Below are positions 10,595-51,224 of a stretch of 64,000 bases of DNA, in pieces. The translations under genes and the position numbers were made by a program. Source of the DNA: an uncultured virus (IMG/VR IMGVR_UViG_3300031088_000645). Taxonomy: Duplodnaviria > Heunggongvirae > Uroviricota > Caudoviricetes. The stretch lies in the IMG/VR virus record IMGVR_UViG_3300031088_000645. One strand, given 5' to 3'. The notes beneath the pieces were generated by a model that did not search any database, had not been told where the DNA came from, and worked only from the letters and a program-made list of their open reading frames with translations. Each line of letters opens with the position of its first letter. Position 1 is the stretch's first letter.

Positions 10595-11512
10595 GTGAAT
10601 CACCTTACCCCGACCCAGATTGTCGATAAGAACGGCAAGCGCACCACTGTTCACAAGAGCCTGGTGCCGTCTCAGCGACCACCTCGCACTGTCTCAGAGC
10701 CTCGTGGCGCTGCTGCGGGTACTCGCCAGGAATGGGAGTTCTATGGCTTCCAAGAGCCTTCTGAGGCTCGCGTGTATACCGACTTCTTGGAGCAGGCTCA
10801 GGAACGTAGTCGCAGTGAAGTTGAGGGACTGAGTGATGTGCAGAGGAATGCACTCTCGTTCTTCACCTCGATGCATCACAAGAGCATCAACAACGCGCTC
10901 TATGGCACGGAGACGCTACCTGCCGAACAAGATGTCGATGACGCATCGCAAGGGTTTCCCACCCTTGATTCAGTCAACTCGTTTGAGCTACAGAAAGCAT
11001 CGAAGAACTACTCATTGAAGGTGCATGATCGTTTGTTCAACGATGTCGTTACCAACATGGATTCGGCATTCGAGTCCGCCAATCACGCCCCGCGTATTGT
11101 CTACCGAGGGGTAGACACTTATGGTGAGTATCTTGCTGATGATGGCAGGACAGCAGAGTGGGTGGATGAGAACTATGCGTTGGGTTCAGAGGTGGTCATC
11201 GACGGCTATCAGTCCGCATCCAATGACCCTGGTGTTGGATTGAAGTATGCGAACAAGAGCGGCGTTCTCTTGGAGATGAAGACTGGTTCTGGTATCAGCA
11301 TCACTGATGTCTCTTACTACAAACTCGAAGATGAAGTGGTGCTCCCTCGCGCTCGTCGTTGGAGGGTTGTCGGGGTACACCATGACCAAGAGTTCACGGT
11401 CCAGATGGCGCGTGGTTCCAAGTCAGAACGGGTCACTCTGGTTCAGATGGTCGAAGTAGACGAAGATGGCGATGAGGTCAAGGGGTACATCTCGCCTCCC
11501 AGTATTGCTTAG
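10595..11512 (+). CDS. VIP2-like (R-S-ExE) ADP-ribosyltransferase with DKNGK leader
   Basis: INNALY, IVYRGV, YQSASND, LEDEVVLPR; leader PTQIVDKNGKRTTVHK. Confidence 0.82.
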   Translation: MNHLTPTQIVDKNGKRTTVHKSLVPSQRPPRTVSEPRGAAAGTRQEWEFYGFQEPSEARVYTDFLEQAQERSRSEVEGLSDVQRNALSFFTSMHHKSINNALYGTETLPAEQDVDDASQGFPTLDSVNSFELQKASKNYSLKVHDRLFNDVVTNMDSAFESANHAPRIVYRGVDTYGEYLADDGRTAEWVDENYALGSEVVIDGYQSASNDPGVGLKYANKSGVLLEMKTGSGISITDVSYYKLEDEVVLPRARRWRVVGVHHDQEFTVQMARGSKSERVTLVQMVEVDEDGDEVKGYISPPSIA

Positions 11513-12459
11513 TCGAGGACTATCCATTCGGCTGTACCGAGGTCGAAGTTACGCCCAAGAGCTATCTCGCCTTCGGCATCGTCTGAGGTGTTGTGACACT
11601 TCGTGCCTGCGGGGAGAGTTATCTTCGCCACGAGTCCGCCGCGTCCTAATCCGCCAGCGAATCCTTGTGCTGTCGAAAGGTTCACTGAGGTAGAGAGGTA
11701 AGACTTCTCGACAAATCCCTTCTGTAGTTCAGCGCGCTTGTCGGCATCTTTCACACGGATACCTCGATACACCGTTACCGGCTCGGTGAGAGTGTCGGAC
11801 TCCATGATTCCATCCAAGGTCTCGATGAGCTTAGGATTGAGTTCGGAGTCGTTGCGCAGTGCTTCGTTGATATCTGAGAATGCTTCTCCGAAGTACATGA
11901 ACTTAGCGGCATCAACTGATGCGTTCCAGTCACTCTCGCCTTCTTCAAGAAGCTCCACCATCTCAAAGAGGTTGTCAGCCACCATCTCGCTCTCCCAACC
12001 TGAACGGTGATAGGTCTCATCTCGTAGCTCTGCAAAACCCCTTTTGATGTAGGGCTGTGCAGAGGTCAACGGTGTGTACTCATCGTTCAGAAAATCATCG
12101 GCTTGTTCATAGCTTTTCCATACCGCGACAGTCTGCTGCCCTTTGCTTGACTTCTGAATATGAGCCTCATAGATCGTTCCATCAATCGATGTCATCTCAA
12201 CAGTCATGTACGAAATACCGCGTACGTTCGTTCTGGTGGAACCCGGCTTGAACAGCATGTCTCCGCCATTGTTCAGGTCGTCAATACCCTGAGCGATTTT
12301 GTCTATATCAAGAGATGAGATGGCAACATCCGCAGTCGAACTAGAGCCAGGCTTAGGTGTTGTCGGTCGTGACTTCGCAGCAGGTTTACCGTCGATACTG
12401 GCATGAACGGTCGTGTGCTTACCGTTCTTGTCCACTATCTGCTTGGGTGCGGTTGCCAT
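11509..12459 (-). CDS. VIP2-like (R-STS-ExE) ADP-ribosyltransferase with DKNGK leader
   Basis: INEALR, TVYRGI, YLSTSVN, ITLPAGTK, AEGEIAL; leader PKQIVDKNGKHTTVH. Confidence 0.85.
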   Translation of the reverse strand: MATAPKQIVDKNGKHTTVHASIDGKPAAKSRPTTPKPGSSSTADVAISSLDIDKIAQGIDDLNNGGDMLFKPGSTRTNVRGISYMTVEMTSIDGTIYEAHIQKSSKGQQTVAVWKSYEQADDFLNDEYTPLTSAQPYIKRGFAELRDETYHRSGWESEMVADNLFEMVELLEEGESDWNASVDAAKFMYFGEAFSDINEALRNDSELNPKLIETLDGIMESDTLTEPVTVYRGIRVKDADKRAELQKGFVEKSYLSTSVNLSTAQGFAGGLGRGGLVAKITLPAGTKCHNTSDDAEGEIALGRNFDLGTAEWIVLD

Positions 12460-13241
12460 CAGTCATTCAGTCCTGCGAACAGACCGTCTTTACCTCGTGA
12501 GAATGACTCTACGACAGTGAGCTTGTTGGGGTTCACTGTGAGGCTGACGGAGCCTTCATTCTCGTATCGATTGACGTATCTGGTTGCGCCGTTTCCTTCG
12601 TACCAGTCGTCTTCTCGTGCAAGGTAGACCGACTTGGGTTCGGCATTGTCATCCTCGATTACCGTGGCGTGAATGGGGATCTTAGGGTCAAGCTGAATCT
12701 TGTGGATGACCCATTCTTGGTCTTTGCCTTCGGTCTGGAATTCTGAGACGAACTTGATCCTGTCTAGTGCTGCTTGAAGGGTTCCGAGGTGCACCATAGC
12801 GCTGAGACCTGGGTCTTTTCGACCGTCTTCATTGATTCCGGTGATGACCTGGCTGTGCCAATCGTCGATGACAGTTGCGTGATACCACGCCTCTTCACGC
12901 ACCACGTTATCGTCAAAGAAGCGTAGACCATCCGGGGTGACACCGATGTTGGCGTTCTCGGGTGTGAATGCTTCCTTACACTCAAAGCACTTCATGGACT
13001 TCGATGCCTGTTGTGCGTCACGCTGTTCTTCGGTGTAGAAGACCCCGCAGAATGGGCAGCCGTAGCCGGTAACACCCTCTGGTGCTACTTCCCAGCCGTC
13101 TACGATGAGTTCGCGCTCTACAGCGGCAGATGAGACCGTTCCGTTCTTGTGTCTGATGGTCTTGCGTTGAACTTCGTCGCTGACGTAGACGGTTGTCCGC
13201 TTGCCGTTCTTGTCGATGATCTGTCTTGGTACTGTAGTCAT
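12459..13241 (-). CDS. DKNGK leader + Zn-ribbon + putative ART-fold domain
   Basis: CPFC..CFEC; WYHAT, VHLGT..AA, RYVNRYENEGSVSL. Confidence 0.65.
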   Translation of the reverse strand: MTTVPRQIIDKNGKRTTVYVSDEVQRKTIRHKNGTVSSAAVERELIVDGWEVAPEGVTGYGCPFCGVFYTEEQRDAQQASKSMKCFECKEAFTPENANIGVTPDGLRFFDDNVVREEAWYHATVIDDWHSQVITGINEDGRKDPGLSAMVHLGTLQAALDRIKFVSEFQTEGKDQEWVIHKIQLDPKIPIHATVIEDDNAEPKSVYLAREDDWYEGNGATRYVNRYENEGSVSLTVNPNKLTVVESFSRGKDGLFAGLND

Positions 13242-13243
13242 GG

Positions 13244-14089
13244 TTAGTATCCCATCGGCTTGGTAAGTGGTTTGTGGTTGCGCTTGATTACTGCTTCTTC
13301 GAGACCATCGAAGCTGCCATCTGATTTCATGGTGAAGCTTTCGGTGACGGTGATGCGGTTGGGATTGACAGCTAGGCTGATCGCACCTTCGTGCTCGAAT
13401 CTGTTGACGTATCTCGTCACGCCTTCTGAGTTGTAGTCTGGGTTCTTGGAGGCTTGGTAGATGTTCTCAGGCTCGAATGAGTCATCGTCGATTACTGCTG
13501 CATGGATAGGAATGTCAGGGTTCAGTTTGACCTTGTGGATGGTCCATTCGAGCGTAGAGTCCTTGCCGCCGACCTCTTCGTTTACGAAGAAGATTCTGTC
13601 CATTGCTGCTTCCAGCGAACCTAGATGAACCAGAACGCTGTAACGCTCGTCTTCCTGGTCTGGCTTGGGGTTCTTACCTCGCTTTGCGCCATCTAACCAG
13701 TTGCCCTTGATGGTGGCGTGATACCACTCGGTCTCTCGTACTACGTCGTCATCGAAGAACTTGAGCGATTCCTGGGTGACTCCGATGTTGGCGGTTTCTG
13801 AGTCGAACGTCTCACCGCATTCATAGCACGGCTGGTAGTTGTCATGCTGTTGCCAGTTGCGTTGCTCGACGGTGTAGAAGACACCGCAGAATGGGCAGCC
13901 GTATCCGGTCTCGCCTTCGCCTGCGATATCCCAGCCGTCAACAACTGGTTCGCGTTCTTCAATGAAGGTCTGTATGTTGCCGTTGAAACCGTATTCGGCA
14001 GTGTTGAGACCAGGCTTGACGTAGGTGATTGTGTGTTTGCCGTTCTTGTCAACGATGGGTCTGGGGATGAGTCCGTTCTTAGTCATCAT
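13244..14089 (-). CDS. DKNGK leader + Zn-ribbon + putative ART-fold domain
   Basis: CPFC..CYEC; WYHAT, VHLGS..AA, RYVNRFEHEGAISL. Confidence 0.65.
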   Translation of the reverse strand: MMTKNGLIPRPIVDKNGKHTITYVKPGLNTAEYGFNGNIQTFIEEREPVVDGWDIAGEGETGYGCPFCGVFYTVEQRNWQQHDNYQPCYECGETFDSETANIGVTQESLKFFDDDVVRETEWYHATIKGNWLDGAKRGKNPKPDQEDERYSVLVHLGSLEAAMDRIFFVNEEVGGKDSTLEWTIHKVKLNPDIPIHAAVIDDDSFEPENIYQASKNPDYNSEGVTRYVNRFEHEGAISLAVNPNRITVTESFTMKSDGSFDGLEEAVIKRNHKPLTKPMGY

Positions 14090-14864
14090 CCCTCTCAGGC
14101 TGGTAGTCCTTGGTGATTCCGAAGCTGTCGATTACGGTGAGCTTGGAGGCGTTGATTGCCAGGCTGATGGAACCTACTTCTTCATACCTGTTGACGTACC
14201 TTGTGGCACCTTCTGCTTCGTACCTGGGGTTGGTTCGAGCTACTGCTACGTTGCGCGGCTCGTAGTCGTCATCTGAGATCACTTCGTCTGCGATGGGTAG
14301 GTCAGGGTCTAGCACGACTTCATGAATGGTCCACGTCAGGTTCTCGCTTGGCATCTCGAACTCAGTCATCCACTTAGCCCTAGCGAGGGCGGCATCAAGG
14401 GTACCGAGGTGCACGATGGCGGGTGTGTCGTTATCGTTGCCATCCTCTCGACCCTCTTTGACTCTTTCGTGCCAGTCGTTTGATGCGGTGGCGTGGTACC
14501 ACTTCTCTTGCCTCACGGTGTCCTTGTCGAAGAACTTGATTGCAGACGGAATGACTGCTACGTCAGAGTCGGTGTTCATGAAGAAGGTTCCGCAGGAGTA
14601 GCACTCTCCGTCATTCTCGCGACTCTCGTGATAAATGCGTTCCTCTTCCGAGAAGAAGACCCCACACTCAGGACAGCCGTATCCGGTCTTGCCCTCAGGA
14701 GCAATCTGCCACATAGTGTACTTACCCCACTTCTCACTCTCATGCATAGCTGCGATGGGAGCAGGGAAGGAGCGAGGCGAGGCGGGATTATCTTTGTCGG
14801 GGTTGATGTGAACGGTCGTCAGTTTGCCGTTCTTGTCCACTATCTGACGGGGAATGCGCGTCAT
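14079..14864 (-). CDS. DKNGK leader + Zn-ribbon + putative ART-fold domain
   Basis: CPEC..CYSC; WYHAT, VHLGT..AA, RYVNRYEEVGSISL; start at MTRIP after GAAAGAGG. Confidence 0.65.
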   Translation of the reverse strand: MTRIPRQIVDKNGKLTTVHINPDKDNPASPRSFPAPIAAMHESEKWGKYTMWQIAPEGKTGYGCPECGVFFSEEERIYHESRENDGECYSCGTFFMNTDSDVAVIPSAIKFFDKDTVRQEKWYHATASNDWHERVKEGREDGNDNDTPAIVHLGTLDAALARAKWMTEFEMPSENLTWTIHEVVLDPDLPIADEVISDDDYEPRNVAVARTNPRYEAEGATRYVNRYEEVGSISLAINASKLTVIDSFGITKDYQPERDDD

Positions 14865-14914
14865 GATGCCTCTTTCACTCATGCCTATTCTAGTGCAGGC
14901 ATATGACAGGCAGG

Positions 14915-15465: not shown

Positions 15466-16374
15466 ATGCCCCAGGCGAATCAGAAGACGGCGAAGAAGAT
15501 CGTGGATAAGAACGGTAAGCACACGACCGTTTACGTCAATGACGATAGTGCTGCTTCATCGCCAAGAGTCATCCCCAATGTCATCATTCCGACAGCACCA
15601 TCTAAGGTAGAGACTGCGTTCACGATACCGGAGAACCCGTCAGCCAGAGCGAAACGAGCCATACAAGAAGACACGGGCAAGATGGACTGGGATGGTAAGC
15701 CGATTGACTACACAATCTTCAAGGCAGGCGATAATTCCTGGGTCTGGAGGGTCGCGCCTGTTGGGTATTCTGGTGTCACCTGCCCCAGTTGTCACTCATT
15801 CTTCACGGACAAAGAGCTTGGATTAGAAACCCCAAGAGTCAATTGCGTCATATGCGAAACACCGACCTATATCGGTGGATATGTCACGGCTGTTCGATAC
15901 GACGACTTACCGCTCTTTGATAAGCAAGAAGTGTATGACCGCGATTGGTACCACATCACGCTCAAATCGGACTGGTCGGAAGCAATCACTGAGTCACATC
16001 CCAGAGATCAACCATATGTCCACCTTGGATCTCTGGCATCAGCCAAGCACCGGATGCAGATCCTTATCAGTCAGAGTAAAGGAAAGCTCTCCGAGGATGA
16101 CTTCTATTGCTATGAGGTCTTCATCAAGCCCGACGCTGCTATCGCTGACCGGGTGGTTGGTGATGATGATTCTGAGGCTCCCAAGAGCGCCGGTAACCGC
16201 CATTATCAGCTAACGGAGGGCTTGGGAGACCAGACGCATTTCTACGAAGAGTTCGGCGTGACGCGGTACGTGAACAGCTACGAAAGTCAGGGCGCTATTT
16301 CCCTCAGTACCCATCCATCCTCTATCGTAATCTCTGACCGCAGTAGGGGCTTCGAGATCAAGAGCATGGAATAG
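15466..16374 (+). CDS. DKNGK leader + Zn-ribbon + putative ART-fold domain
   Basis: CPSC..CVIC; WYHIT, VHLGS..SA, RYVNSYESQGAISL. Confidence 0.65.
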   Translation: MPQANQKTAKKIVDKNGKHTTVYVNDDSAASSPRVIPNVIIPTAPSKVETAFTIPENPSARAKRAIQEDTGKMDWDGKPIDYTIFKAGDNSWVWRVAPVGYSGVTCPSCHSFFTDKELGLETPRVNCVICETPTYIGGYVTAVRYDDLPLFDKQEVYDRDWYHITLKSDWSEAITESHPRDQPYVHLGSLASAKHRMQILISQSKGKLSEDDFYCYEVFIKPDAAIADRVVGDDDSEAPKSAGNRHYQLTEGLGDQTHFYEEFGVTRYVNSYESQGAISLSTHPSSIVISDRSRGFEIKSME

Positions 16375-23821: not shown

Positions 23822-24640
23822 TTGAAGAGCAACCTGCAACCCACTTCCATCGTGGACAAGAACGGCAAACACACGACAGTCCATAAGAAGTTAGCGGTTG
23901 TTCCAGATAGAGCTAGTGACATCACCGTCACGCCTCTAGCAACTACCACTCAGGATAACTTTGAGAACACCCAGTCACATCGTGTAGGGAAGTGGCGTGT
24001 CGCACCCGAAGGTATGGCTGGTGCTATCTGCCAGCACTGCGGTGAATTCGTCACCCGTTCATTCGTCAAAGCGGTGACATTAAAGGCGCGCCGATGCGAA
24101 AACTGCGATGAACACTGCGACCTGTTTTCTCTTGATCCAGCAATCCGAGCGGAAGATGCTGAGTTGGTAGATCCGCAAAAGGTGTATGAACGAGACTGGT
24201 ATCACTACACCACGAACAAAAACTGGTACGAAGATGTCACGAGGCTGAATGAAGAAAAGGGTGCTGGGGGTATTCTTGTGCACCTTGGAAGCGTTGATGC
24301 TGCACTGGAAAGATCAGAGGCTTTTACTCAGACCAACAATCCAACCGTCATCTACGGTTACAAGATTCGAGTCAAGGTCGGCGCGCCTATTTCAGACACC
24401 ATCAATGACGATCACAACGACAACGCTCCGATATCTCCCCGTGAATGTAAGGACGATTTTTGGAACAGCATTGGGTACGATGACAACGACGAAGAGATTA
24501 TGGCAGCGCCAGAGGACATGCAACGCTATGAGCCGTATGGTGCTACCCGATACGTCAACAACTTCGAGGCTATCGGCTCGGTCAGCCTGCTTGCCAACCC
24601 ACTAGCTCTTGAACTGGTGGATACATTTGTCGTCAAGTAA
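23822..24640 (+). CDS. DKNGK leader + Zn-ribbon + putative ART-fold domain
   Basis: CQHC..CENC; WYHYT, VHLGS..AA, RYVNNFEAIGSVSL; AAGGAG RBS before TTG. Confidence 0.65.
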   Translation: MKSNLQPTSIVDKNGKHTTVHKKLAVVPDRASDITVTPLATTTQDNFENTQSHRVGKWRVAPEGMAGAICQHCGEFVTRSFVKAVTLKARRCENCDEHCDLFSLDPAIRAEDAELVDPQKVYERDWYHYTTNKNWYEDVTRLNEEKGAGGILVHLGSVDAALERSEAFTQTNNPTVIYGYKIRVKVGAPISDTINDDHNDNAPISPRECKDDFWNSIGYDDNDEEIMAAPEDMQRYEPYGATRYVNNFEAIGSVSLLANPLALELVDTFVVK

Positions 24641-26225: not shown

Positions 26226-27242
26226 ATGTCCGCAACGGTGCCTACGGCTATCGTTGACAAGAATGGTGTTCTCACCACACGACACAAACGCACTGCCACA
26301 CCGGTAAAGTCTCGATTGGTCACTCTTGCTTCAACACCTCCCAAATTTCAAGACGACCCCCGAGACACATTCAGCGAAGTCAACAATCGAATGCATGAAG
26401 CTATCTCCATGCTCACTACATCCATTGCCGAAAGAGTCGAATACAAAGCCGTAGACGACGTAGTTCGGCTCTCTAAGAAGCTCACAGCGCTCTCGGACGC
26501 TATGTCTGTCTGGGAGACGATTACGCGCCATGCTGACTCTATTGAGCAGGCACGAGATGAGTTCAATACAGAGATGAAGGAGCGCATCAGCAATTCATCT
26601 CCGCTGCTGAACGAGCCAGAGATTTCAGGCTATACGTTGGCATTAGGCTACATGAAATCCGCTGACTTCCAAGTCGTCCGAGAGGATGAGGACGTACTAG
26701 CTCTGCGTGCGCACTTCGCGGCTCATATCGGCAAGGATGTCATCGTCACCGATGTTGACGATCAGCAGAGTCGCGGTATCCTCATCGACAACTGGCGACA
26801 TGACATGTACTTCCTAGTTCAAGATGGTGAGCGGTCGGATGAGATAGACATGTTCTCCGTGGCTAGTATCGAAGAAGACGAAAGCGCGCCAAAGGGTTCG
26901 TTTACCCGTCGAGCCATGAGTAACGACGACAAAGAGATGGTTGCCTCGGTTGCTGAAGTAGACAGACTCTCTGAGCAGTGGCTGGGTATCAAAGCCTTGA
27001 CTCAGCCAGGAGAAATCGAGGTCCAGTATGACCGTCTCTATGGACTCACATCCGACATCTTGGACTCGCGAGGACCAGCAACAGGTCAGGTTCCCTCCTA
27101 CGCCATGACCGGTCTGATGAACGAAGTCTTAGGCATCGATGATGCCGAATTCGATGACCTCATCAGTAGCAAAAGAAGTGTATCCATCCCTGTGAGCAAG
27201 ATAAGACAGTACGTAATAGAGGTTGCTGTATCTGAGGACTGA
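26226..27242 (+). CDS. DKNG-leader protein, helical domain shared with 27279
   Basis: PTAIVDKNGVLTTRHK; FxDDPxDT...W.ET...ARDE...EP...GY.LA. Confidence 0.7.
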   Translation: MSATVPTAIVDKNGVLTTRHKRTATPVKSRLVTLASTPPKFQDDPRDTFSEVNNRMHEAISMLTTSIAERVEYKAVDDVVRLSKKLTALSDAMSVWETITRHADSIEQARDEFNTEMKERISNSSPLLNEPEISGYTLALGYMKSADFQVVREDEDVLALRAHFAAHIGKDVIVTDVDDQQSRGILIDNWRHDMYFLVQDGERSDEIDMFSVASIEEDESAPKGSFTRRAMSNDDKEMVASVAEVDRLSEQWLGIKALTQPGEIEVQYDRLYGLTSDILDSRGPATGQVPSYAMTGLMNEVLGIDDAEFDDLISSKRSVSIPVSKIRQYVIEVAVSED

Positions 27243-32160: not shown

Positions 32161-32172
32161 CGGAGGATAGTC

Positions 32173-38453: not shown

Positions 38454-38552
38454 TTTTCCTTCTTGATAGTTAGGTCAAAACCATACTATACGCAACACGG
38501 TGGGAGTGTCACATCCTGGCGCTAGAATAGAGCTAACCCAAGGGAGAAAAGC

Positions 38553-39140
38553 GTGAGCAACCTACAGCCAACCGTCATCGTTGACAAGAACGGTAAGACC
38601 ACCACCGTTCATAAGAAGATTGATACCGGTGCATCGGCAGCACGAGCTTCAGCAGCACCTGCTACTCCCAGTAGGAGTGACGGACAGGCTCATTACGAAG
38701 GCTTGCCGCTTCCTATCGAAATCTCTGAGGCTGAAATCAAGGCTGCTGTCCAAAGCTTCTTGGAAGTTGCTGTATTCACCAGCACACATTCCGAGTACAA
38801 CGAAGAGACCCAAGAAGAGTCGGAGCCTGTTGAGCTTGACTCACTCGGTAAGGGCGTTTCTGACTTCTCAACCGACAGTAGCTACAAGGCACGCAAGAAG
38901 GTTATCGAGTTCATCGAGAACAACCCCGAGCTAGTCGAAGAAGCCTTGGAGCTTGACGACTATGCTTCTGACGACTTCGGTGGAGACCTCTATTACACCA
39001 TGCATGGTCACGGTACGGGATTCTGGGACAGAGAGCCGCTCAAGGCTAATGGTCTCGGTGACAGGCTCACTGCTGCCGCTGATGAAGCCGGAACGATGGA
39101 AGTGTTCCTAGGCAACAACGGCGAACTGGACTTCATCTAG
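38553..39140 (+). CDS. DKNGK-leader protein with GHGTGFWDR domain
   Basis: QPTVIVDKNGKTTTVHKK; FGGDLYYTMHGHGTGFWDR...GDRLT. Confidence 0.7.
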   Translation: MSNLQPTVIVDKNGKTTTVHKKIDTGASAARASAAPATPSRSDGQAHYEGLPLPIEISEAEIKAAVQSFLEVAVFTSTHSEYNEETQEESEPVELDSLGKGVSDFSTDSSYKARKKVIEFIENNPELVEEALELDDYASDDFGGDLYYTMHGHGTGFWDREPLKANGLGDRLTAAADEAGTMEVFLGNNGELDFI

Positions 39141-39211
39141 CAACATGCAGTCATGACAATCGTGTCACAAGCCTGAGCTAAACTAATATCACCAACACGG
39201 AGAGTGGACCA

Positions 39212-40129
39212 ATGAGTAACACCGTACCTACACCCATCACTGACAAGAACGGTAAGTTGACGACCGTTCATAAGAAGACAGACACCACAAGTGCATCTAG
39301 CGCGCGTCTTGCCGGACTCAATGGTGAGACCAAGCCTACCGAGAAGCGCACTGTGTTCAAGCCTGGTAATGGAGCTACACCCGATTGGGTTCGCTCAGGT
39401 CATAAGGTTGAGCTTGGCGCAAAGCAGGAAGATGGTAGACAGAACATCTATCTGGATGGAAAGGTCATCGGTAACGTTTCCTCTGCGGATGAAATGCAGA
39501 GTGTGAACATCAAGGGAACTCGCCTCCGCCGCGATACTGGCTACAAAAAGACATGGCGCACCACTGGCTCAAACTCCGAAGAGAAGTTGCCACACATGCG
39601 AAGCAACGGCGGCTCGTCGTCACGTACCAACGCAGTCAATACGCATGCCGACCGTATCGTTCGATTCAAAGAGAACATTCGTGAAAGCGAGAGGTTCCTT
39701 GAGAATGAGGGCATCGCATTCGGTAACGATAAAGAGTTCGAGTTCGGCGCTCGTGGTCATAAGATTGACCTGCCCCAAGGGTTCAGACCTATGGTCGCCA
39801 ACTGGTATGACACCATGTCCAATGGAAGGCTCTCTACTAGTGTGGAACTTAGAAGCGAGCGCCGAGAGTACGTCTTCGTAGAGCCAAACGATTTCGATAC
39901 TAACGGCAAGCCACTCGAAAGAGGTAGGCGACTTGTTGTCCAGGTCGCGGGAGACAACGAATTCCAGACCATCGACATTCCGGAAGACGGAATCATCGAC
40001 ATCGAAGACATCGAAATTCCTCCATTGAATACTCGTGCGCAGGATTTCCGTGAAGATGTACGAGCCATTGTCAAGCAGATCATGGACACTCGTGACAAGC
40101 CCAACAAGATGGATGTGGTATTCCGATGA
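39212..40129 (+). CDS. DKNGK-leader protein (paralog of 40126)
   Basis: PTPITDKNGKLTTVHKK; ELGAK, FGARGH, IMDTRDK shared with 40126. Confidence 0.7.
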   Translation: MSNTVPTPITDKNGKLTTVHKKTDTTSASSARLAGLNGETKPTEKRTVFKPGNGATPDWVRSGHKVELGAKQEDGRQNIYLDGKVIGNVSSADEMQSVNIKGTRLRRDTGYKKTWRTTGSNSEEKLPHMRSNGGSSSRTNAVNTHADRIVRFKENIRESERFLENEGIAFGNDKEFEFGARGHKIDLPQGFRPMVANWYDTMSNGRLSTSVELRSERREYVFVEPNDFDTNGKPLERGRRLVVQVAGDNEFQTIDIPEDGIIDIEDIEIPPLNTRAQDFREDVRAIVKQIMDTRDKPNKMDVVFR

Positions 40130-41019
40130 GCAACCTACAGCCCACACCGATTACCGACAAGAACGGTAAGCTCACCACTGTCCATAAGAAGGTTGGTGAG
40201 ACTGACACTAGCTCTGCCCGTGTTGCTGGTCTCAAACCTTCCAGAGCGAGCGCCAAGAGAACTGCTGTCAAGCCGCCTAAGTTCGAAGCTGCTAACTGGT
40301 TCAGAGATGGTCATGCCCTAGAACTAGGTGCCAAGGATAAAGAGGGAGCACAGCTTGTCTATCTTGACGGCAGCCCGATTGGCACTGTCACATCGGCAGA
40401 TGAGTCTCAGTACTCGCCGCTTGCTGGAACTCGACTCATCCAGTTTACAAGCGAGAAGAAGATTTGGCGTGTTTCTTTGGATGGTTCAGAGGGCGAAGTG
40501 CCAGCATATATCAACTCCTACAACGGACACGGCTCTCGTGCAAGCGCTGTGTCAGACCATGCCGACAAGGTGCTTAACATGCGATGGAAGCTGGCGCGGA
40601 GCGAAGAGTTCCTCAAGCAGGATGGTATTGCCTTCGATAGACACAAGGGTTACGACTTTGGTGCAAGAGGTCATGGGATTGAGATTCCTGACGAGTGGAT
40701 GACTGGCTTTAGCGGGACTATTACCTCGGGAGAGCTACACACGACCGCTGAGTTCTTTACCAAGGATGGCAATTCCGCTACTCTCCAGCCGAATGAGTTC
40801 GATTTCCGTGGCATGGAGAAAAAGCCATCCGTCACGGTCCAGCTTGGAAAGGGAAGCGGATATCACGCACTACCCATCTCCGAGGACGGGAGCCTCGATG
40901 TCAGCAGTATCAACCCCAAGAACGATACTGAGCGCAAATTCCTCGGTGATCTACAGGGTGTCGTCAAAGACATCATGGACACACGAGATAAGGAATCAAC
41001 GATGAGGGTTGCCCGATGA
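40126..41019 (+). CDS. DKNGK-leader protein (paralog of 39212)
   Basis: QPTPITDKNGKLTTVHKK; ATGA overlap. Confidence 0.7.
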   Translation: MSNLQPTPITDKNGKLTTVHKKVGETDTSSARVAGLKPSRASAKRTAVKPPKFEAANWFRDGHALELGAKDKEGAQLVYLDGSPIGTVTSADESQYSPLAGTRLIQFTSEKKIWRVSLDGSEGEVPAYINSYNGHGSRASAVSDHADKVLNMRWKLARSEEFLKQDGIAFDRHKGYDFGARGHGIEIPDEWMTGFSGTITSGELHTTAEFFTKDGNSATLQPNEFDFRGMEKKPSVTVQLGKGSGYHALPISEDGSLDVSSINPKNDTERKFLGDLQGVVKDIMDTRDKESTMRVAR

Positions 41020-41747
41020 GTAACCTACAGCCAACCCCTATTGTGGACAAGAACGGCAAGCAGACAACCGTCCACAAGAGAACCGATTCGGTAGAGCCAA
41101 CAAGGTCACTACCAGGCATCTCTACCTCAACGTTTATCCGAGGCGAAGAGACAGCACGAGATGTCAACCTTGCTGACATTGACGACCTTGTTGCCGAGTC
41201 CGTATCAAAGCGAATTCTCATTGAGAGACCAAGCACTCCTGGGATACGCAACTTCGTCAGCGATGCAATCGATTTCGGTCAAATGGGGAATGGAAATCGT
41301 CTTGTAGTGAACCTGAGCCTTACGTACGATGAAACCTTGACAGGTAGGGTGAATGACGAGTTGGAGCCTATCGATGATCATTGGCGCATGAGTATCAAAG
41401 CGAGTGTTCAGGACAACACAGGTCACGGTGTTGGCTACTCCGGTGACATCAAGAACGCCCTCGATGATGTCCGCGTAGATGGTGAAGAGCACCCTCGTGC
41501 CGAGAGCTTCCGAGCTATCTGGGAAGAGTATGAGTTTGATGGTGTCCGACCAGGAACGGTATCTCAGATGAACCACTTGGAAGCACTTGGTTACGACTGG
41601 AAGACCGATAACATCAAGGATGCCATTGACAAGATCCCTGATGACAATGGTCACGCCTTCGGTTCGAAACCGCTCGTTCATGAGATCAGTTCAGGGAATC
41701 TCGCGTATGTCCTTGACACCGTAGAGCTAGCTAAGTCGAAGTGGTAG
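41016..41747 (+). CDS. DKNGK-leader protein, unknown cargo
   Basis: QPTPIVDKNGKQTTVHKR; ATGA overlap. Confidence 0.7.
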   Translation: MSNLQPTPIVDKNGKQTTVHKRTDSVEPTRSLPGISTSTFIRGEETARDVNLADIDDLVAESVSKRILIERPSTPGIRNFVSDAIDFGQMGNGNRLVVNLSLTYDETLTGRVNDELEPIDDHWRMSIKASVQDNTGHGVGYSGDIKNALDDVRVDGEEHPRAESFRAIWEEYEFDGVRPGTVSQMNHLEALGYDWKTDNIKDAIDKIPDDNGHAFGSKPLVHEISSGNLAYVLDTVELAKSKW

Positions 41748-43555: not shown

Positions 43556-43611
43556 GAGACAAATAACAAAGCCAGCCCGATAGATGGGCTGGCTTTGTTG
43601 TTGCTGGTGGG

Positions 43612-43704: not shown

Positions 43705-43708
43705 GCGT

Positions 43709-43942: not shown

Positions 43943-44081
43943 AATTGTCTCCGATGGTCTAGAAATGTTGGTTGTGTAGCTATACCTTACGCCAACATTG
44001 TGGATGAGTCAAATTATCAGGAGTTCCTAGACAACGAATTGATACTGCTCGCCTCAAAATCGTTCAATATTGGCTCGATAC

Positions 44082-44634: not shown

Positions 44635-45162
44635 ATGCCTGGTGAACACCTCATCCCAAAGCCTATCGTTGACCGAAACGGTAAGCATACGACCGTGCGC
44701 ACCAAGCCGTCTCTACCCATCTCAAATCGTGAGCTACCTTCTGTGGCAGTAGGCTCAAAGCCGCTACCTTCTCAGAACTTCTCGTTCCCCAAAGAGACAG
44801 TGCAGGCGTTCACCGAAGGTGACTGCTGGGTGCTTGCCGAAGAGGTTCGGAAGATGACCGGCTGGGAAAAGGTTGCAGTGGGATATGACGACACCGAAGA
44901 GGGTCAAAAGCCTGACTTCTACTGGCTACACGTTGCCAACAGACTACCCGATGGACGATTGCTCGACATCACAGGAATCCACTCTGACGAAGAGTTCATC
45001 GATAGGTGGGGCGGACCAGTAAGTGAGTCATATCTCTTCCCTGTCAATGACCCTTCATACTTCGACCATGTTGAGCCGGAGTACAACATCGACGCGCGGC
45101 GTACGGCTGATGTTCTTATCGAGATGCTCCCGCTCTATGGAGTAAGACGTGAAAACATCTAG
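44635..45162 (+). CDS. DRNGK-leader protein with putative Cys-His-Asp catalytic domain
   Basis: AFTEGDCWVLA...WLHVANRLPDGRLLDITG; TATAAT-N6-ATG. Confidence 0.65.
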   Translation: MPGEHLIPKPIVDRNGKHTTVRTKPSLPISNRELPSVAVGSKPLPSQNFSFPKETVQAFTEGDCWVLAEEVRKMTGWEKVAVGYDDTEEGQKPDFYWLHVANRLPDGRLLDITGIHSDEEFIDRWGGPVSESYLFPVNDPSYFDHVEPEYNIDARRTADVLIEMLPLYGVRRENI

Positions 45163-45703
45163 CCGAGTGCGTAAGTCCATCATCGACAAAAACGGTAAGC
45201 GAACGACCGTCTACATCAACCCCCACAAAGGTATCAAGTCATCACTACCAGAACCCCCATCGCCAAGCGCTGCTGCTGAACAAAGGTATCAGCCAATCCA
45301 CTCTTTCAGCTTCTCAGAAGAAGAGGTGGTGGCGTTTACGGAAAGCGACTGCTTCTTACTTGCTGAGCACATCCAAACAGCTACAGGGTGGGAACGAGTT
45401 GCGATAGGAACTGAGTGGGGTGAGGATGGAAAACTTGACCAACCCGCCGACTACGATTGGGTTCACATGGTCAACCGAATGCCTGATGGCAAGCTGGTGG
45501 ATATCACAGGCATCTATGATGAAGACACACTCGTGGACAAGTGGCTTAGTGACTTGCACTACGACAGCAGCCGTTCGCATCCAAGCATACGTCTAGTTGA
45601 CGATGAGGGTTATATGATGAATGCCTGGTCTCGAAACATCGTAGATCCAGTACCTCGCGCCAAAGCAATCGTTGAACTTGTTCGAGGTATCGAGGGCATC
45701 TAG
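45149..45703 (+). CDS. DKNGK-leader protein with putative Cys-His-Asp catalytic domain
   Basis: AFTESDCFLLA...WVHMVNRMPDGKLVDITG. Confidence 0.65.
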   Translation: MKTSSRVRKSIIDKNGKRTTVYINPHKGIKSSLPEPPSPSAAAEQRYQPIHSFSFSEEEVVAFTESDCFLLAEHIQTATGWERVAIGTEWGEDGKLDQPADYDWVHMVNRMPDGKLVDITGIYDEDTLVDKWLSDLHYDSSRSHPSIRLVDDEGYMMNAWSRNIVDPVPRAKAIVELVRGIEGI

Positions 45704-46890: not shown

Positions 46891-47067
46891 GATGTGTTTC
46901 CTAGGGTAAAGTCGTATCAAAGCGATACGTGTCGTTATGTGAATTTTAGCAAAGAGGGGTGTCTCTCTTTGGCGGAACCTATTAATTGGTTAGTGCACTA
47001 AGCTTTTGGTCTAGACAGAAAGAAGCCCCGTAGCTTTCGCTACGGGGCTTCTTTACCTCTATTCGAT

Positions 47068-49860: not shown

Positions 49861-49870
49861 TGCCGTCTGG

Positions 49871-50350
49871 TCACCGCTGGGATGCTGCTAGTCCCACTAC
49901 CCCACCCACTCCGTAGAGGTTGGGTAAGTCGTCTGGCACACCAGGGAATAGAGGACCGTAATACTCGGGGTTCTTCCTGATGAGGTTGCTCTGGTGCGAA
50001 CGATGGAATTCAGGGTCACCTAGCCACAGCGGTTCAGTGTTGGCTAGCGCTAGCTCTTCGGTTGATGCACCATCGAAGAACTCATCCACGAATGCTTGGG
50101 TCTTACCTAGCACCGTATCCTTGTAGCCTCGTACATCGATCCACTCATGGAGAATAGCCTCCTGATACCTCATGAGTGCTAGTTCATGCCCCTTCCATTG
50201 GAGGGTTGCCGAGTGGTGTGAGTAGCCTTCGTGGTTGGTGGTGAGAGCACGCATGATTACCATTGTTTCGTTTCGCTGATTACCAAGATGAGGGCGGCTG
50301 AGAGCAGCAGCGGATTCCGCAAAGTTGGGGAATGGAAGGAACGTCTGCAT
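49871..50350 (-). CDS. MSMEG_6728-like / pyrimidine-dimer glycosylase superfamily protein
   Basis: MQTFLPFPNF...LGNQRNET...WKGHELAL...PLWLGDPEFHRSHQSNLIRKNPEYY. Confidence 0.8.
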   Translation of the reverse strand: MQTFLPFPNFAESAAALSRPHLGNQRNETMVIMRALTTNHEGYSHHSATLQWKGHELALMRYQEAILHEWIDVRGYKDTVLGKTQAFVDEFFDGASTEELALANTEPLWLGDPEFHRSHQSNLIRKNPEYYGPLFPGVPDDLPNLYGVGGVVGLAASQR

Positions 50351-50483
50351 AGCTATCTCCTGAGGTAGGTAGATAGTGTAGCTACTGTGTTTGGGTGGTC
50401 AAGCAGGTTATGCACTATGCGCACGGAACACACAGAAACGCCCTCCAAGTGATGACCTGGAGGGCGTTTCTGGGTAGCTAAGG

Positions 50484-51224
50484 CTAGATGGACGATCCTC
50501 TGTTAGGGGCTGGGAAGGCTCTCCTAATAACGTCAGGGAGGAAGCCCGATGTGACATCTCTGATGAAGTTCACGGCTTCCTGGGTGTTAGCGTGGTGCGG
50601 ATCATCGTAGAGTCCCATCATGTCTTCGGTGCTGTACTCGATAGGTCTATCGACGACATCGTGGGGTTGAGACTTAGTAGGTACCATGATGGAGAATTCA
50701 TTACCGTCTTCGTTCTCCGGGAGAACTACGCCGTCGTACTTTCCGCGAACAAATCCTTCAAGTACAGCGCGTCTTTCCATCTTGGACTCAGCGAAGTTTT
50801 CATCGATGTTGCCAGCAAGGCTATCGAAGTCCACCTTGTAACCGGCGTAGACTTTGAAGACACCTTCGGTATCTCGCTCAGCGAGCTTGAAGTCAGGGGC
50901 GTGGCGAGGATATGAGAAGTTATCCTTGTTGACATCGAAGCGTACCGAATCACCCTTATCGAGAGACACATAAGCTTCAGTGACATTATTGACGTGGCGA
51001 TTGAGGTAGGGGTACTTTTGCTGAACAATCTCGGCAGTGCCTTCGAGTGTGTAACTGGTGCCGTCCCCAAAGGTTCCGGTCGAGTCATCCTGAATGGGTG
51101 CAGACGCGGCACTGATGGCGACACTACCTGCTCTGGCAGCAGAGCGCCCGTCATCGACTCTCTTATGGACAGTAGTCTGTTTGCCGTTCTTATCAACGAT
51201 GGGCGTAGGGGTTAGGTTACTCAT
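50484..51224 (-). CDS. DKNGK-leader protein, unknown cargo
   Basis: PTPIVDKNGKQTTVHKR; TACAAT-N6-ATG. Confidence 0.7.
   Translation of the reverse strand: MSNLTPTPIVDKNGKQTTVHKRVDDGRSAARAGSVAISAASAPIQDDSTGTFGDGTSYTLEGTAEIVQQKYPYLNRHVNNVTEAYVSLDKGDSVRFDVNKDNFSYPRHAPDFKLAERDTEGVFKVYAGYKVDFDSLAGNIDENFAESKMERRAVLEGFVRGKYDGVVLPENEDGNEFSIMVPTKSQPHDVVDRPIEYSTEDMMGLYDDPHHANTQEAVNFIRDVTSGFLPDVIRRAFPAPNRGSSI

What the first reader, a model, noticed from the sequence alone, without database searches (positions are those of the whole stretch)
10595..51224. Sixteen diverse proteins share an N-terminal 'IVDKNGKxTTVH' leader: candidate tagged-effector delivery system
Seen: the motif P-x-x-I-[VIT]-D-[KR]-N-G-[KV]-x-T-[TI]-[VTR]-[HYR] lies in the first ~25 aa of ORFs starting at 10595+, 12459-, 13241-, 14089-, 14864-, 15466+, 23822+, 26226+, 27279+, 38553+, 39212+, 40126+, 41016+, 44635+, 45149+ and 51224-. 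It is usually followed by a S/P/A/R-rich linker and then one of about eight unrelated cargo types. Synonymous codons vary (gataagaacggc, gacaagaacggt, gacaaaaacggt, gacaagaatggt), so conservation is at protein level. I saw it in none of the metabolic, membrane or Cas proteins. Established: phage T4 uses a short N-terminal capsid-targeting sequence on internal proteins, and it packages and injects the ADP-ribosyltransferase Alt. Inference: the leader, a likely beta-hairpin around the DKNG turn, is a sorting tag that loads host-takeover or anti-defence enzymes into virions or a transfer apparatus. I do not recognise it as a described family.
Basis: partly seen in the sequence, partly recalled or inferred. 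Interest (0 to 1): 0.92.

Follow-up and report, generated by a model that had tools for sequence, protein, structure and literature searches.

The report
Shared N-terminal tag on effector proteins
A giant mobile genetic element from plant-surface bacteria (a huge phage or a megaplasmid) starts hundreds of otherwise unrelated small proteins, many of them host-attack or anti-defence enzymes, with the same short peptide. The peptide looks like an undescribed address label, but where it sends the proteins has not been shown.

Summary
All 16 ORFs carry P-x-x-I-[VIT]-D-[KR]-N-G-[KV]-x-T-[TI] 6-16 residues from their start. A leader HMM finds exactly these 16 in the window (E<=3e-12, next hit E=4.6). 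The strict DNA pattern occurs 14 times against 0 expected. Conservation is at protein level.

The motif is the core of a module: a basic beta-hairpin (AF2 pLDDT about 80), then a disordered linker with a semi-conserved S-x-R-[VL] about 22 residues on, then a folded acidic cargo.

The leader HMM matches 809 protein clusters in 1.84 billion representatives. It is N-terminal in 149 of the 150 listed. All come from metagenomes, on contigs of up to 805 kb. No Pfam, PHROG, NCBIfam or PDB family and no paper I found covers the leader.

Recognisable cargos are those of "polyvalent" injected proteins: ADP-ribosyltransferases (7 of 16 here have an ART family or fold), ArdC-N with a zincin peptidase, ArdA, LPD29, a papain-like toxin domain and GmrSD-N.

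Tagged genes share a promoter motif.

A common address tag is well supported. Delivery with the element's DNA is the best reading (about 0.45) but is not shown: no capsid, portal, terminase or coupling protein was recognised in the 267 kb examined.

The parts
10595..11512 (+). Tagged gene 1 (305 aa, GTG start). Leader residues about 5-20. Cargo is an ADP-ribosyltransferase.
   Evidence: Leader. PF03496 at 35.1 bits against a cut-off of 23.4, and PF01129. phrog_595 over profile positions 348-499 of 513.
11509..12459 (-). Tagged gene 2 (316 aa). Cargo is an Alt-like ADP-ribosyltransferase. Last gene of a four-gene tagged operon.
   Evidence: PF03496 at 26.9 bits against a cut-off of 23.4. phrog_802, Alt-like ART.
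12459..13241 (-). Tagged gene 3 (260 aa). Cargo is a CxxC...CxxC zinc ribbon plus a predicted ART-fold domain.
   Evidence: Member of alignment A4, with invariant Cys pairs and H, Y and E columns.
13244..14089 (-). Tagged gene 4 (281 aa). Same cargo family as gene 3.
14079..14864 (-). Tagged gene 5 (261 aa). First gene of the operon 14864 to 11509. The structure of this protein was modelled.
   Evidence: AF2: hairpin E4-9/E15-20, linker 23-49 with pLDDT under 50, cargo pLDDT about 87. The top 50 PDB neighbours are all ART-superfamily: ParT Z 6.9 (rmsd 3.6, 118 aligned), RES, diphtheria toxin, MbcT, Tpt1.
14887..14908 (-). Promoter-like motif TGTCAT-N10-TAGAAT in front of the tagged operon.
15466..16374 (+). 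Tagged gene 6 (302 aa). Zinc ribbon plus ART-fold family, transcribed divergently from the operon at 14864.
23822..24640 (+). Tagged gene 7 (272 aa, TTG start). Zinc ribbon plus ART-fold family.
26226..27242 (+). Tagged gene 8 (338 aa). Leader variant DKNGV...TTRH. Helical cargo of unknown family.
27279..27776 (+). Tagged gene 9 (165 aa). Same cargo cluster as gene 8.
38507..38528 (+). Promoter-like motif TGTCAC-N10-TAGAAT in front of tagged gene 10.
38553..39140 (+). Tagged gene 10 (195 aa, GTG start). The cargo matches a phage family of unknown function.
   Evidence: phrog_1915, E 5.5e-25, over cargo residues 55-189 only. RNA-library pieces lie on it.
39212..40129 (+). Tagged gene 11 (305 aa). 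The structure was modelled; the cargo fold has no PDB relative.
   Evidence: AF2 with 77 sequences: hairpin E4-10/E16-22 with block pLDDT 77-86, residues 25-41 under 50, cargo about 90. No PDB match at E<=0.001. Partial match to small uncharacterised viral proteins, E 6.6e-4.
40126..41019 (+). Tagged gene 12 (297 aa). Paralogue of gene 11, overlapping it by 4 nt.
41016..41747 (+). Tagged gene 13 (243 aa). Cargo unknown.
44635..45162 (+). Tagged gene 14 (175 aa). Leader variant DRNG. Cargo has a conserved D-C...W-x-H pattern and no assigned family.
   Evidence: An hhalign comparison with the PLDMTX-like cargos was not significant.
45149..45703 (+). Tagged gene 15 (184 aa, GTG start). Paralogue of gene 14.
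50484..51224 (-). Tagged gene 16 (246 aa). Cargo unknown. It lies directly behind a 7-repeat CRISPR array.
51231..51252 (-). Promoter-like motif TGTCAC-N10-TACAAT. Its -10 element ends 6 nt before the ATG, which suggests a leaderless mRNA.

Best explanation
**What it is.** The peptide is a portable N-terminal address module of about 30 residues, with three parts:
- a free N-terminus 6-11 residues long, typically M-S-N-L-x-P-T-P;
- a basic beta-hairpin, I-V-D-K-N-G-K-x-T-T-V-H-K-K;
- after about 8 more residues, a semi-conserved S-x-R-[VL]-x-x-[VL] stretch inside a flexible A/S/P-rich linker.

A clade of very large extrachromosomal elements of plant-surface bacteria puts this module in front of hundreds of different small, acidic, mostly single-domain effector proteins. 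The host is probably actinobacterial. Whether the elements are huge phages or megaplasmids is open.

**How it most likely works (inferred).** The module is recognised by one receptor of the element, so that all tagged proteins share one fate. The most likely fate is loading into the particle or transfer machine, so that they enter the next host cell together with the element's DNA. There the ADP-ribosyltransferases, anti-restriction proteins and peptidases act before the element's genes are expressed. On this reading the module does non-covalently what fusion into one giant 'polyvalent' protein, or to a MuF/portal anchor, does in other phages and plasmids.

**Shown:** the tag, its N-terminal position, its spread, the predicted hairpin, the kinds of cargo and the shared promoter motif.

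**Inferred:** that a receptor exists, and that the fate is delivery.
For: **Tag-like behaviour**
- Exactly 16 of 815 ORFs in the window carry it.
- 134 unique tagged proteins fall into 65 BLAST cargo clusters.
- The leader HMM finds 809 cluster representatives at E<=0.001 among 1.84 billion. In 149 of the 150 listed, the match starts at residue 1-17.
- In 234 of 249 unique proteins the Met lies 6-11 residues before the Ile.
- Synonymous codons differ in 46% of same-residue codon pairs.

**Anatomy**
- The hairpin is predicted with block pLDDT 77-86 when 77 sequences are used. The linker is under 50 and the cargo about 90.
- Net charge is +3.3 for the hairpin and -7.8 per 100 aa for the cargo.
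- Cargos are more acidic than untagged proteins of the same DNA: -8.1 against -1.5 in the window and -5.3 against -2.0 in G001. Mann-Whitney p=2.6e-7 for 24 tagged against 227 untagged.

**Cargo identity**
- PF03496 ARTs.
- Alt-like phrog_802, and the ART part of 'head and packaging' phrog_595.
- ART-PolyVal, ArdcN (two proteins, one also with a below-cut-off MPTase-PolyVal hit), LPD29 and GmrSD_N.
- LPD29, Tox-PLDMTX and LRV over cut-off, and ArdA just below cut-off.
- An ART-superfamily fold for the five-member zinc-ribbon family.
- These are the domains Iyer et al. 2017 assign to proteins injected with phage or plasmid DNA (PMC5512222, passages).
- PHROG profiles match only the cargo part, from residue 46 or later. 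Relatives in other phages therefore lack the leader.

**Precedent for short N-terminal capsid addresses.** The first 30 residues of P1 DarB suffice to send a reporter into capsids, and T4 has a comparable capsid-targeting system (PMC9024508, abstract and passages).

**Co-regulation**
- TGTCNN-N10-13-TANNAT lies within 70 nt upstream of 23 of 85 unique tagged genes, against 0.22 in shuffles.
- In the window it precedes 3 of 16 tagged and 0 of 69 untagged ORFs. In G001 it precedes 6 of 8 tagged and 5 of 201 untagged ORFs, and 2 of those 5 are weak leader hits.

**No immunity-type genes.** No untagged gene is interleaved in the tagged operons 14864 to 11509 or 39212 to 41747.
Against: - **No delivery machine was identified.** No capsid, portal, terminase, prohead protease, relaxase or coupling protein was recognised in the window (64 kb) or in G001 (203 kb), using Pfam, PHROGs, NCBIfam or targeted family searches. 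The complete element, 637 kb or more by the contig lengths, was not available.
- **The tag is very abundant.** There are 16 genes in 64 kb and 13-17 in 203 kb, which may be many for capsid cargo.
- **No protease-site consensus follows the tag.** Nothing like T4's appears.
- **The cargos are acidic.** T4's DNA-associated internal proteins are basic (recalled, not from a call).
- **The promoter has a sigma-70-like -10 element.** It could as well mark early genes, whose products would act in the producing cell.
- **The hairpin is not always terminal.** One protein (P0143, 770 aa) carries three copies, two of them internal.
Confidence: 0.45

Rival explanations
1. **Localisation or hub-binding tag inside the producing cell.** The hairpin docks all tagged enzymes onto one host or element structure, such as RNA polymerase, the ribosome, the nucleoid, the membrane or a replication compartment. 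They act there after entry and are never packaged.
For: - The tagged genes have their own promoter class with a sigma-70-like -10 element, and many look like leaderless or Shine-Dalgarno-led ordinary genes.
- They are very numerous.
- No packaging or transfer genes were seen.
- Internal copies exist in P0143.
Against: - The narrow distance from the start codon (234 of 249 within 6-11 residues) suggests that a free N-terminus matters, which a docking motif would not need.
- Cargos such as ArdC-N, ArdA and Alt-like ARTs are the kinds described as travelling with the DNA.
- No partner is known.
Confidence: 0.2
2. **Basic nucleic-acid-binding hairpin.** The +3 hairpin binds the element's DNA non-specifically, so that acidic effectors ride on the DNA. 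This would itself give co-packaging or co-transfer.
For: - Hairpin net charge is +3.3, on cargos of -7.8 per 100 aa.
- Cargos are more acidic than untagged proteins.
Against: - The invariant D, N, G and T positions fit a specific protein-protein epitope or a tight turn better than unspecific charge.
- There is no similarity to known DNA-binding families.
- Nothing was tested.
Confidence: 0.1
3. **Handle for a chaperone or protease.** One chaperone or unfoldase recognises the leader and keeps the many potentially toxic effectors inactive or short-lived in the producing cell.
For: - Many cargos are toxin-like: ARTs, RES/ParT-like folds and a papain-like toxin domain.
- No immunity genes are interleaved.
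- The long disordered linker behind the tag would suit engagement by an unfoldase.
Against: - No Clp- or Lon-type gene was seen beside the tagged genes.
- Known degrons are far less conserved (recalled).
- This would not explain the anti-restriction cargos.
Confidence: 0.1
4. **Self-assembly tag.** The hairpins of different proteins pair into a sheet and bundle the effectors into one non-covalent 'polyvalent' complex.
For: - P0143 has three hairpin copies in one chain.
- The cargo repertoire equals that of covalent polyvalent proteins.
Against: There is no evidence of oligomerisation. The planned test with three leader copies could not be run.
Confidence: 0.05
5. **Not a protein signal.** The shared 5' end reflects cassette recombination or a translation-initiation element at the RNA level.
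For: - Assembly graphs of related strains break at the leader-coding stretch (loose ends at 38583, 38617, 40191 and 45198 in run X7), as at a repeat.
- 19 of 85 genes look leaderless.
Against: - 46% of same-residue codon pairs differ.
- Upstream DNA is not conserved apart from a short promoter motif.
- The amino-acid pattern holds across 809 clusters.
Confidence: 0.02

Closest known systems
Phage T4 capsid targeting sequence (internal proteins IPI-III, Alt) and the P1 DarB N-terminal packaging signal
   Same: Both are short N-terminal peptides on otherwise unrelated proteins, ART and anti-restriction proteins among them. Each directs the proteins to one destination and is portable to other cargos (P1: first 30 residues; PMC9024508).
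   Different: - No sequence relation was seen; the DarB sequence was not compared directly.
- No T4-type cleavage motif follows the tag.
- The tag is a well-conserved predicted beta-hairpin, not a loose peptide.
- It is used on hundreds of cargo families, not on a handful.
- Packaging is not shown, and the head genes were not seen.
Polyvalent proteins of phages and conjugative elements (Iyer et al. 2017, PMC5512222)
   Same: The domain repertoire is the same: ART-PolyVal, ArdC-N with MPTase-PolyVal, LPD29, a papain-like peptidase or toxin domain, and ParB/GmrSD-like domains. They occur on a large mobile element.
   Different: Here each effector is a separate small protein (52-770 aa, median about 238) behind a common leader, not 2-15 domains fused in one chain. 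The leader is none of the Pfam domains from that work.
N-terminal marker motifs of secreted polymorphic effectors (T6SS MIX/RIX, T3SS N-terminal signals; recalled, not checked here)
   Same: The architecture is alike: a conserved N-terminal trafficking element followed by a variable C-terminal toxin or effector.
   Different: There is no sequence relation. No T3SS or T6SS genes were seen. The carrier is a giant extrachromosomal element. No neighbouring immunity genes were found.
Encapsulin cargo-loading peptides
   Same: A short peptide, joined to diverse cargo by a flexible linker, binds one shell protein.
   Different: Those peptides are mostly C-terminal and unrelated in sequence (recalled). 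No encapsulin or HK97-fold shell gene was recognised here.

Membership tests
T4-type capsid targeting sequence | A short peptide at the extreme N-terminus of otherwise unrelated proteins. | tested here: met
   16 of 16 in the window. 149 of the 150 listed database hits start at residue 1-17.
T4-type capsid targeting sequence | The tag is removed by the prohead protease at a conserved (L/I)-x-E site just behind it (motif recalled). | tested here: not met
   Column frequencies behind the hairpin show H-K-K-x-[DE] and later S-x-R-[VL], with no L/I-x-E consensus. Cleavage itself cannot be tested here.
T4-type capsid targeting sequence | Head scaffold, prohead protease and major capsid genes in the same genome. 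| tested here: inconclusive
   None was recognised in the window or in G001. Only 267 kb of elements that reach 637 kb or more were seen.
T4-type capsid targeting sequence | Tagged proteins are found inside capsids. | not testable with these tools
   Needs particle proteomics.
Polyvalent proteins (Iyer 2017) | Two or more disparate effector domains in one polypeptide. | tested here: not met
   The two modelled proteins each show one folded cargo region behind the linker. No tagged protein scanned had two unrelated Pfam effector families, except the ArdC-N plus MPTase pair.
Polyvalent proteins (Iyer 2017) | Characteristic domain repertoire (ART-PolyVal, MPTase-PolyVal, ArdC-N, LPD domains). | tested here: met
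   ART-PolyVal 68 bits, ArdcN 41 and 44.9 bits, LPD29 72.6 and 53.4 bits, all over their cut-offs. MPTase-PolyVal 23.6 bits is below its cut-off.
Any described family for the leader itself (Pfam, PHROGs, NCBIfam, PDB sequences) | A profile or solved chain that matches the leader residues. | tested here: not met
   No Pfam hit on the leader in 242 tagged proteins. PHROG hits start at residue 46 or later. The PDB profile search at E<=10 gives only a chance 13-residue match inside iota-carbonic anhydrase.
ADP-ribosyltransferase superfamily (cargo) | A Pfam ART family over its curated cut-off. | tested here: met
   Gene 10595+: PF03496 at 35.1 against 23.4. Gene 12459-: 26.9 against 23.4.
ADP-ribosyltransferase superfamily (cargo) | ART fold and conserved catalytic-type residues in the zinc-ribbon family (13241-, 14089-, 14864-, 15466+, 23822+). 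| tested here: inconclusive
   The top 50 entries of the second-look alignment are all ART-superfamily, but Z is only 5.2-6.9 and the best Foldseek E is 0.011. Invariant H124, Y223 and E228 columns exist, but they were not mapped onto an active site.
Tailed phage (for the carrier element) | Terminase, portal and major capsid protein. | tested here: inconclusive
   Not found in G001 with PF17289, PF03237 or PF05065 or with PHROGs. Phage-like traits are present: 64 tRNAs plus a tmRNA, many HNH endonucleases, and IMG/VR listing.

The most novel reading that the evidence does not exclude
The IVDKNGKxTTVH hairpin is a new protein-trafficking signal. One receptor of a huge phage or megaplasmid reads it and loads an 'effectorome' into the vehicle that carries the DNA to the next cell. 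That effectorome comprises dozens of different enzymes per genome and hundreds of families across the clade. This would be by far the largest tagged cargo set known for any mobile element. It would also give a ready catalogue of mostly unknown host-takeover and anti-defence proteins, and a portable delivery tag.
Probability: 0.4. Interest if true: 0.85.

Novelty: new variant of a known kind. Interest (0 to 1): 0.74.

Why it matters
If the tag marks proteins that travel with the DNA, it identifies the first-strike arsenal of some of the largest known mobile elements by sequence alone. That arsenal includes hundreds of cargo families, and about 95% of the tagged proteins scanned have no Pfam family over its cut-off. 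It would make a long-standing question testable: which proteins do huge phages or megaplasmids bring along? The ways to test it are a 20-residue search pattern, leader-reporter fusions and particle proteomics. It would also provide a compact portable tag. Even if the destination is different, a module this conserved on so many unrelated proteins implies an unknown receptor worth finding.

Tried and rejected
**Searches for relatives of the window or the leader**
- Near-identical DNA and tblastn searches in the phage and plasmid collections found nothing.
- The alignment-based locus search in IMG/VR confirmed nothing. The plain DNA pattern then found one 203-kb contig, G001.
- The strict DNA pattern in 185,579 species genomes gave 27 hits, none of leader type. 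All lie inside unrelated proteins such as iota-carbonic-anhydrase-like proteins.
- An ESM Atlas look-up of the leader gave no usable feature hit, and its structural neighbours of a 40-residue hairpin were meaningless.

**Checks of specific ideas**
- An RNA leader, prompted by earlier findings: upstream DNA does not align apart from the promoter motif.
- A link between the 44635/45149 cargo and the PLDMTX-like cargos: hhalign probability 0.7%, rejected. BLASTP aligns only the leader.
- A variant pattern ending in Trp in IMG/VR gave one uninformative AT-rich contig.
- CRISPR spacers against everything held gave only the same array from another sample and one weak self-match.

**Attempts to identify the carrier element**
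- The large unknown G001 proteins gave nothing useful against PDB sequences.
- Terminase and capsid families were not found in G001.
- A second IMG/VR relative, G002 (42 kb, replication module), has no leader hit.
- The metagenome records behind the loci are not held for whole-record searches, and no whole genome is held for the window.

**Other**
- The fold of the 39212 cargo has no PDB match at E<=0.001.
- Pieces of RNA libraries lie on tagged genes. These are contigs, and DNA carry-over is not excluded, so this is no proof of transcription. Parts without cover say nothing.

Full report
**1. The observation**

A six-frame scan of the window for D[KR]NG returns exactly 16 hits.

- The DNA pattern for D-K-N-G-K-x-T occurs 14 times, against 0.00 expected in 100 dinucleotide-preserving shuffles. 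The other two copies are the variants DRNG and DKNGV.
- A profile built from 87 leaders and run over all 815 stop-to-stop ORFs of the window finds these 16 (E 6e-20 to 3.4e-12) and nothing else below E=4.6. So the Ter, thymidine kinase, SHMT, DnaB-like and Cas proteins of the window do not carry the leader.
- Among the 16 copies, 531 of 1157 codon pairs encoding the same residue differ, and upstream DNA does not align. The constraint is therefore on the peptide.

**2. Anatomy of the module**

I pooled 249 unique tagged proteins from the window, related loci and database hits. The loci were retrieved with a pattern that fixes I-x-D-K-N-G-K-x-T-T-V, so conservation of those columns is partly by construction. 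The flanks are not fixed by the pattern.

- The Met lies 6-11 residues before the Ile in 234 of 249 proteins.
- The N-terminus is typically M-S-N-L-x-P-T-P. The hairpin is followed by H-K-K.
- 176 of 249 proteins have an R followed by V/L/I/A/M/T 16-31 residues after the Ile. In 159 of them it lies at +21 to +24, in the context S-S-[SA]-R-[VL]-[AS]-[GSA]-[VL].
- Net charge is +3.3 for the hairpin part, +0.6 for the next 26 residues (which are A/S/P-rich), and -7.8 per 100 aa for the cargo.
- Cargos are more acidic than untagged proteins from the same DNA: -8.1 against -1.5 in the window and -5.3 against -2.0 in G001. Mann-Whitney p=2.6e-7 for 24 tagged against 227 untagged.

AlphaFold2 gave consistent models for two proteins.

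| Gene | Sequences in alignment | Hairpin | Linker | Cargo |
|---|---|---|---|---|
| 14864- | 15 | E4-9/E15-20, block pLDDT 51-60 | 23-49, under 50 | about 87 |
| 39212+ | 77 (66 of them leader-only rows) | E4-10/E16-22, block pLDDT 77-86 | 25-41, under 50 (includes the S-x-R-L stretch) | about 90 |

The R motif keeps a fixed spacing yet is disordered in the monomer model. This would fit a stretch that folds only on a partner. That is inference.

**3. Spread**

- An alignment search of the 5.8-billion-protein collection gave 54 proteins, all with the motif at residue 10-32. All come from metagenomic sources, on contigs of up to 805,269, 654,127, 637,428 and 494,976 bases.
- The exhaustive profile search of 1.84 billion cluster representatives gave 809 proteins at E<=0.001 and 74 at E<=1e-10. 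Of the 150 listed, 149 match from residue 1-17.
- The exception, P0143 (770 aa), has three copies, at residues about 9, 195 and 431.
Of 143 unique matches:
  - 93 are unambiguously N-terminal;
  - 19, by my reading of the contexts printed there, lie inside unrelated proteins;
  - the remaining 31 are leader-like with an ambiguous upstream frame.
- The same pattern found one IMG/VR contig (G001, 202,737 bp). That contig holds 13 leader matches at E<=6.3e-6 and 17 at E<=0.04.
- The pattern found no leader-type match in 185,579 species genomes.
- Near-identical DNA of the window occurs in runs labelled phyllosphere, plant, leaf-litter, straw and food metagenomes, from 15 studies.

**4. The cargos**

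134 unique tagged proteins fall into 65 BLAST clusters. The window holds 9 of them.

By my tally of three Pfam calls over 242 tagged proteins (some near-duplicates), 11 have a family over its curated cut-off:
- two ADPrib_exo_Tox;
- ART-PolyVal, two ArdcN, LPD29 and GmrSD_N;
- LPD29, Tox-PLDMTX and two LRV.

Below cut-off are MPTase-PolyVal (on one ArdcN protein), ArdA and two more Tox-PLDMTX.

PHROGs calls gene 12459- Alt-like (phrog_802). It places the ART of gene 10595+ in the C-terminal part of a 'head and packaging' family (phrog_595, profile positions 348-499 of 513).

The largest family has five genes in the window. It carries two CxxC pairs and invariant W-Y-H-x-T, V-H-L-G and T-R-Y-V-N-x-x-E stretches. 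The neighbours of its model are all ART-superfamily proteins: ParT Z 6.9 (rmsd 3.6, 118 aligned), RES, diphtheria toxin, MbcT, Tpt1, exotoxin A and tankyrases. The best Foldseek E-value is 0.011. The scores are middling, so I call this an ART fold by inference. If that holds, 7 of the window's 16 tagged genes are NAD-using enzymes.

PHROG profiles match only the cargo part, from residue 46 or later. The same domains therefore exist without the leader in other phages.

This repertoire is the one Iyer et al. describe for 'polyvalent proteins', which they argue are injected with phage or plasmid DNA at the start of infection (PMC5512222, passages read). It is also mentioned for jumbo phages in PMC7824862 (passages).

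**5. Regulation**

A motif TGTC[GA][CT]-N10-13-TAnnAT precedes tagged transcription units.

| DNA examined | Tagged genes with motif | Untagged genes with motif |
|---|---|---|
| Window | 3 of 16 | 0 of 69 |
| G001 | 6 of 8 regex-defined | 5 of 201 (2 of the 5 are weak leader hits) |
| All unique tagged upstream regions | 23 of 85 | not applicable (shuffle expectation 0.22) |

- The tagged genes in the window that lack the motif mostly sit behind another tagged gene, in tightly overlapping operons: 14864 to 11509, 39212 to 41747, and 44635 to 45703.
- In 19 of 85 genes a -10-like hexamer ends 5-9 nt before the start codon, against 5.9 in shuffles. None of these has a Shine-Dalgarno-like sequence, whereas 54 of 85 do. 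This suggests leaderless mRNAs.
- The timing of this promoter class is unknown.

**6. The carrier**

*The window* holds:
- TerD, TerC and a Ter-associated ATP-grasp gene;
- thymidine kinase, SHMT, a pyrimidine-dimer glycosylase and a DnaB-C-like ATPase;
- a type I-E CRISPR-Cas locus with a cas2-cas3 fusion and two arrays.

*G001* holds:
- a DNA polymerase III alpha-like gene, DnaB, clamp and clamp loader, gyrase, NAD-dependent ligase, RNR, ThyA and dUTPase;
- NAMPT, PRPP synthetase, a CCA-adding enzyme and RtcB;
- many HNH endonucleases;
- 64 tRNA genes and a tmRNA within about 17 kb;
- a second type I-E locus, a WhiB-like gene and an AAA_10 ATPase;
- a type IV pilus set: PilB-, PilT- and PilC-like genes and a prepilin-peptidase-like gene.

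No capsid, portal, terminase, relaxase or coupling protein was recognised.

Al-Shayeb et al. report huge phages of 634-735 kb with tRNAs, tmRNAs and CRISPR-Cas. [quoted passage not shown] I therefore leave phage against megaplasmid open.

WhiB, the leaderless starts and the form of the tmRNA tag (the tag comparison is recalled) point to an actinobacterial host. This is inference.

**7. Interpretation**

It is well supported that the peptide is a common address or recognition module. What it addresses is inferred. I favour co-delivery with the DNA (0.45) for three reasons:
- the kinds of cargo;
- the strict N-terminal placement;
- the precedents of T4 and P1, where the first 30 residues of DarB suffice to send a reporter into capsids (PMC9024508, abstract and passages).

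Against this reading:
- no vehicle was seen;
- the tagged genes are very numerous;
- the cargos are acidic;
- the promoter could mark early genes;
- no cleavage consensus follows the tag;
- P0143 has internal copies.

The rivals are an intracellular docking tag (0.2), a DNA-tethering basic hairpin (0.1), a chaperone or protease handle (0.1), a self-assembly tag (0.05) and an RNA- or recombination-level explanation (0.02). The last is largely excluded by the synonymous variation.

**8. Novelty**

The leader residues are covered by none of the following:
- any Pfam-A, PHROGs or NCBIfam profile, or any PDB chain;
- any phage or plasmid record searched;
- any paper. A full-text search for 'DKNGK' found only 6 unrelated papers. 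Searches on polyvalent proteins, capsid targeting sequences and huge phages found no description of such a tag. This covers only the held library, and supplements were not read.

The principle of N-terminal address peptides on effectors is known. This tag, its scale and its carrier are not.

**9. Limits**

- The whole element was not available.
- Only 150 of the 809 profile hits were listed.
- Retrieval by a strict pattern biases the motif statistics.
- The RNA-library evidence is contig-based.

Noticed in passing
window 8054-9268(-), 27995-29131(+), 45757-46920(-), 47068-48186(-); G001 31065-31574, 31728-32288, 81954-83537, 6775-8343, 113359-114231: A second family shares its N-terminus and varies in its C-terminus. 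The shared part is a pilin-like leader and hydrophobic helix (..AENSIMQTITIAVSAILIAAGLVTAPG..). Behind it come different domains of 169-527 aa, one of them with BNR/sortilin repeats. In G001 two copies sit directly behind a prepilin-peptidase-like gene and PilB/PilT/PilC-like genes. The element seems to encode its own type IV pilus with many alternative pilin or tip proteins. No Pfam pilin family matched at E<=1, apart from a ComP_DUS hit at E=0.11.
   Followed up: partly
window 51275-51669(-) and 55798-58082(+); cas genes 51726-55723(-) and 58207-62992(+): A type I-E CRISPR-Cas locus sits on the element, with a cas2-cas3 fusion. It has two arrays of a 28-nt repeat at 61-nt period, with 7 and 38 repeats. 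The 'ORFs' at 51221-51514 and 51511-51735 lie inside the short array and are spurious. Tagged gene 16 and its promoter start directly behind the array's degenerate last repeat. The spacers matched nothing informative in the sequences held.
   Followed up: partly
upstream of tagged genes, e.g. window 14887-14908(-), 38507-38528(+), 51231-51252(-): A promoter class TGTC[GA][CT]-N10-13-TA(G/T/C)AAT is nearly specific to tagged genes. The upstream box lies too close to the -10 element to be a normal -35, so it may be an activator or alternative-sigma site. In 19 of 85 tagged genes the -10 element ends 5-9 nt before the start codon, which suggests leaderless mRNAs.
   Followed up: partly
G001 (L025 4899-19830, L026 90-1841): An array of 64 tRNA genes plus a tmRNA (tag ANASRNDFALAA) lies within about 17 kb of the related 203-kb contig. 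The window itself has no tRNA genes.
   Followed up: no
all tagged proteins (window and related loci): Cargos are markedly acidic (about -8 net charge per 100 aa) compared with untagged proteins of the same DNA (about -1.5 to -2), while the leader is basic (+3.3). The reason is unexplained. DNA mimicry, as in ArdA-type anti-restriction proteins, is one idea.
   Followed up: partly
P0143 (database protein, 770 aa): This single protein has three leader-like hairpins (N-terminal, about residue 195, and residue 431), followed by repeats. It shows that the hairpin can occur internally.
   Followed up: no
L057, L068, L093, L071/L199 (other metagenome or MAG contigs): A related-looking stretch, K-K-x-I-T-D-K-N-G-K-x-T-T-V-W-V, occurs in Lys-rich phage-like proteins of unrelated contigs. 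It is near the N-terminus in three proteins and at residue 105 in one. One protein (L068) has a phrog_7595 C-terminal domain. This may be a wider hairpin family or a convergence.
   Followed up: partly
window 31-1966 and 16887-17939: Tellurite-resistance-type genes (TerD, a TerC/DUF475 protein, and the Ter-associated ATP-grasp gene) lie on the element, together with a four-fold DUF4379 treble-clef zinc-finger/HNH-like protein at 2074-3339.
   Followed up: no
window 38577-38617, 40191, 45198: In one run of a related strain (X7), contigs break or branch exactly at the leader-coding stretches. The conserved 40-50 nt therefore act as an assembly repeat, which may fragment these elements in metagenome assemblies.
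   Followed up: no
window 38636-40347 and 43586-43965: Read-length contigs from two metatranscriptome libraries of two studies match tagged genes 38553, 39212 and 40126, and the small ORFs at 43584-44134, with 0-3 differences. This hints at expression in nature but does not prove it.
   Followed up: partly
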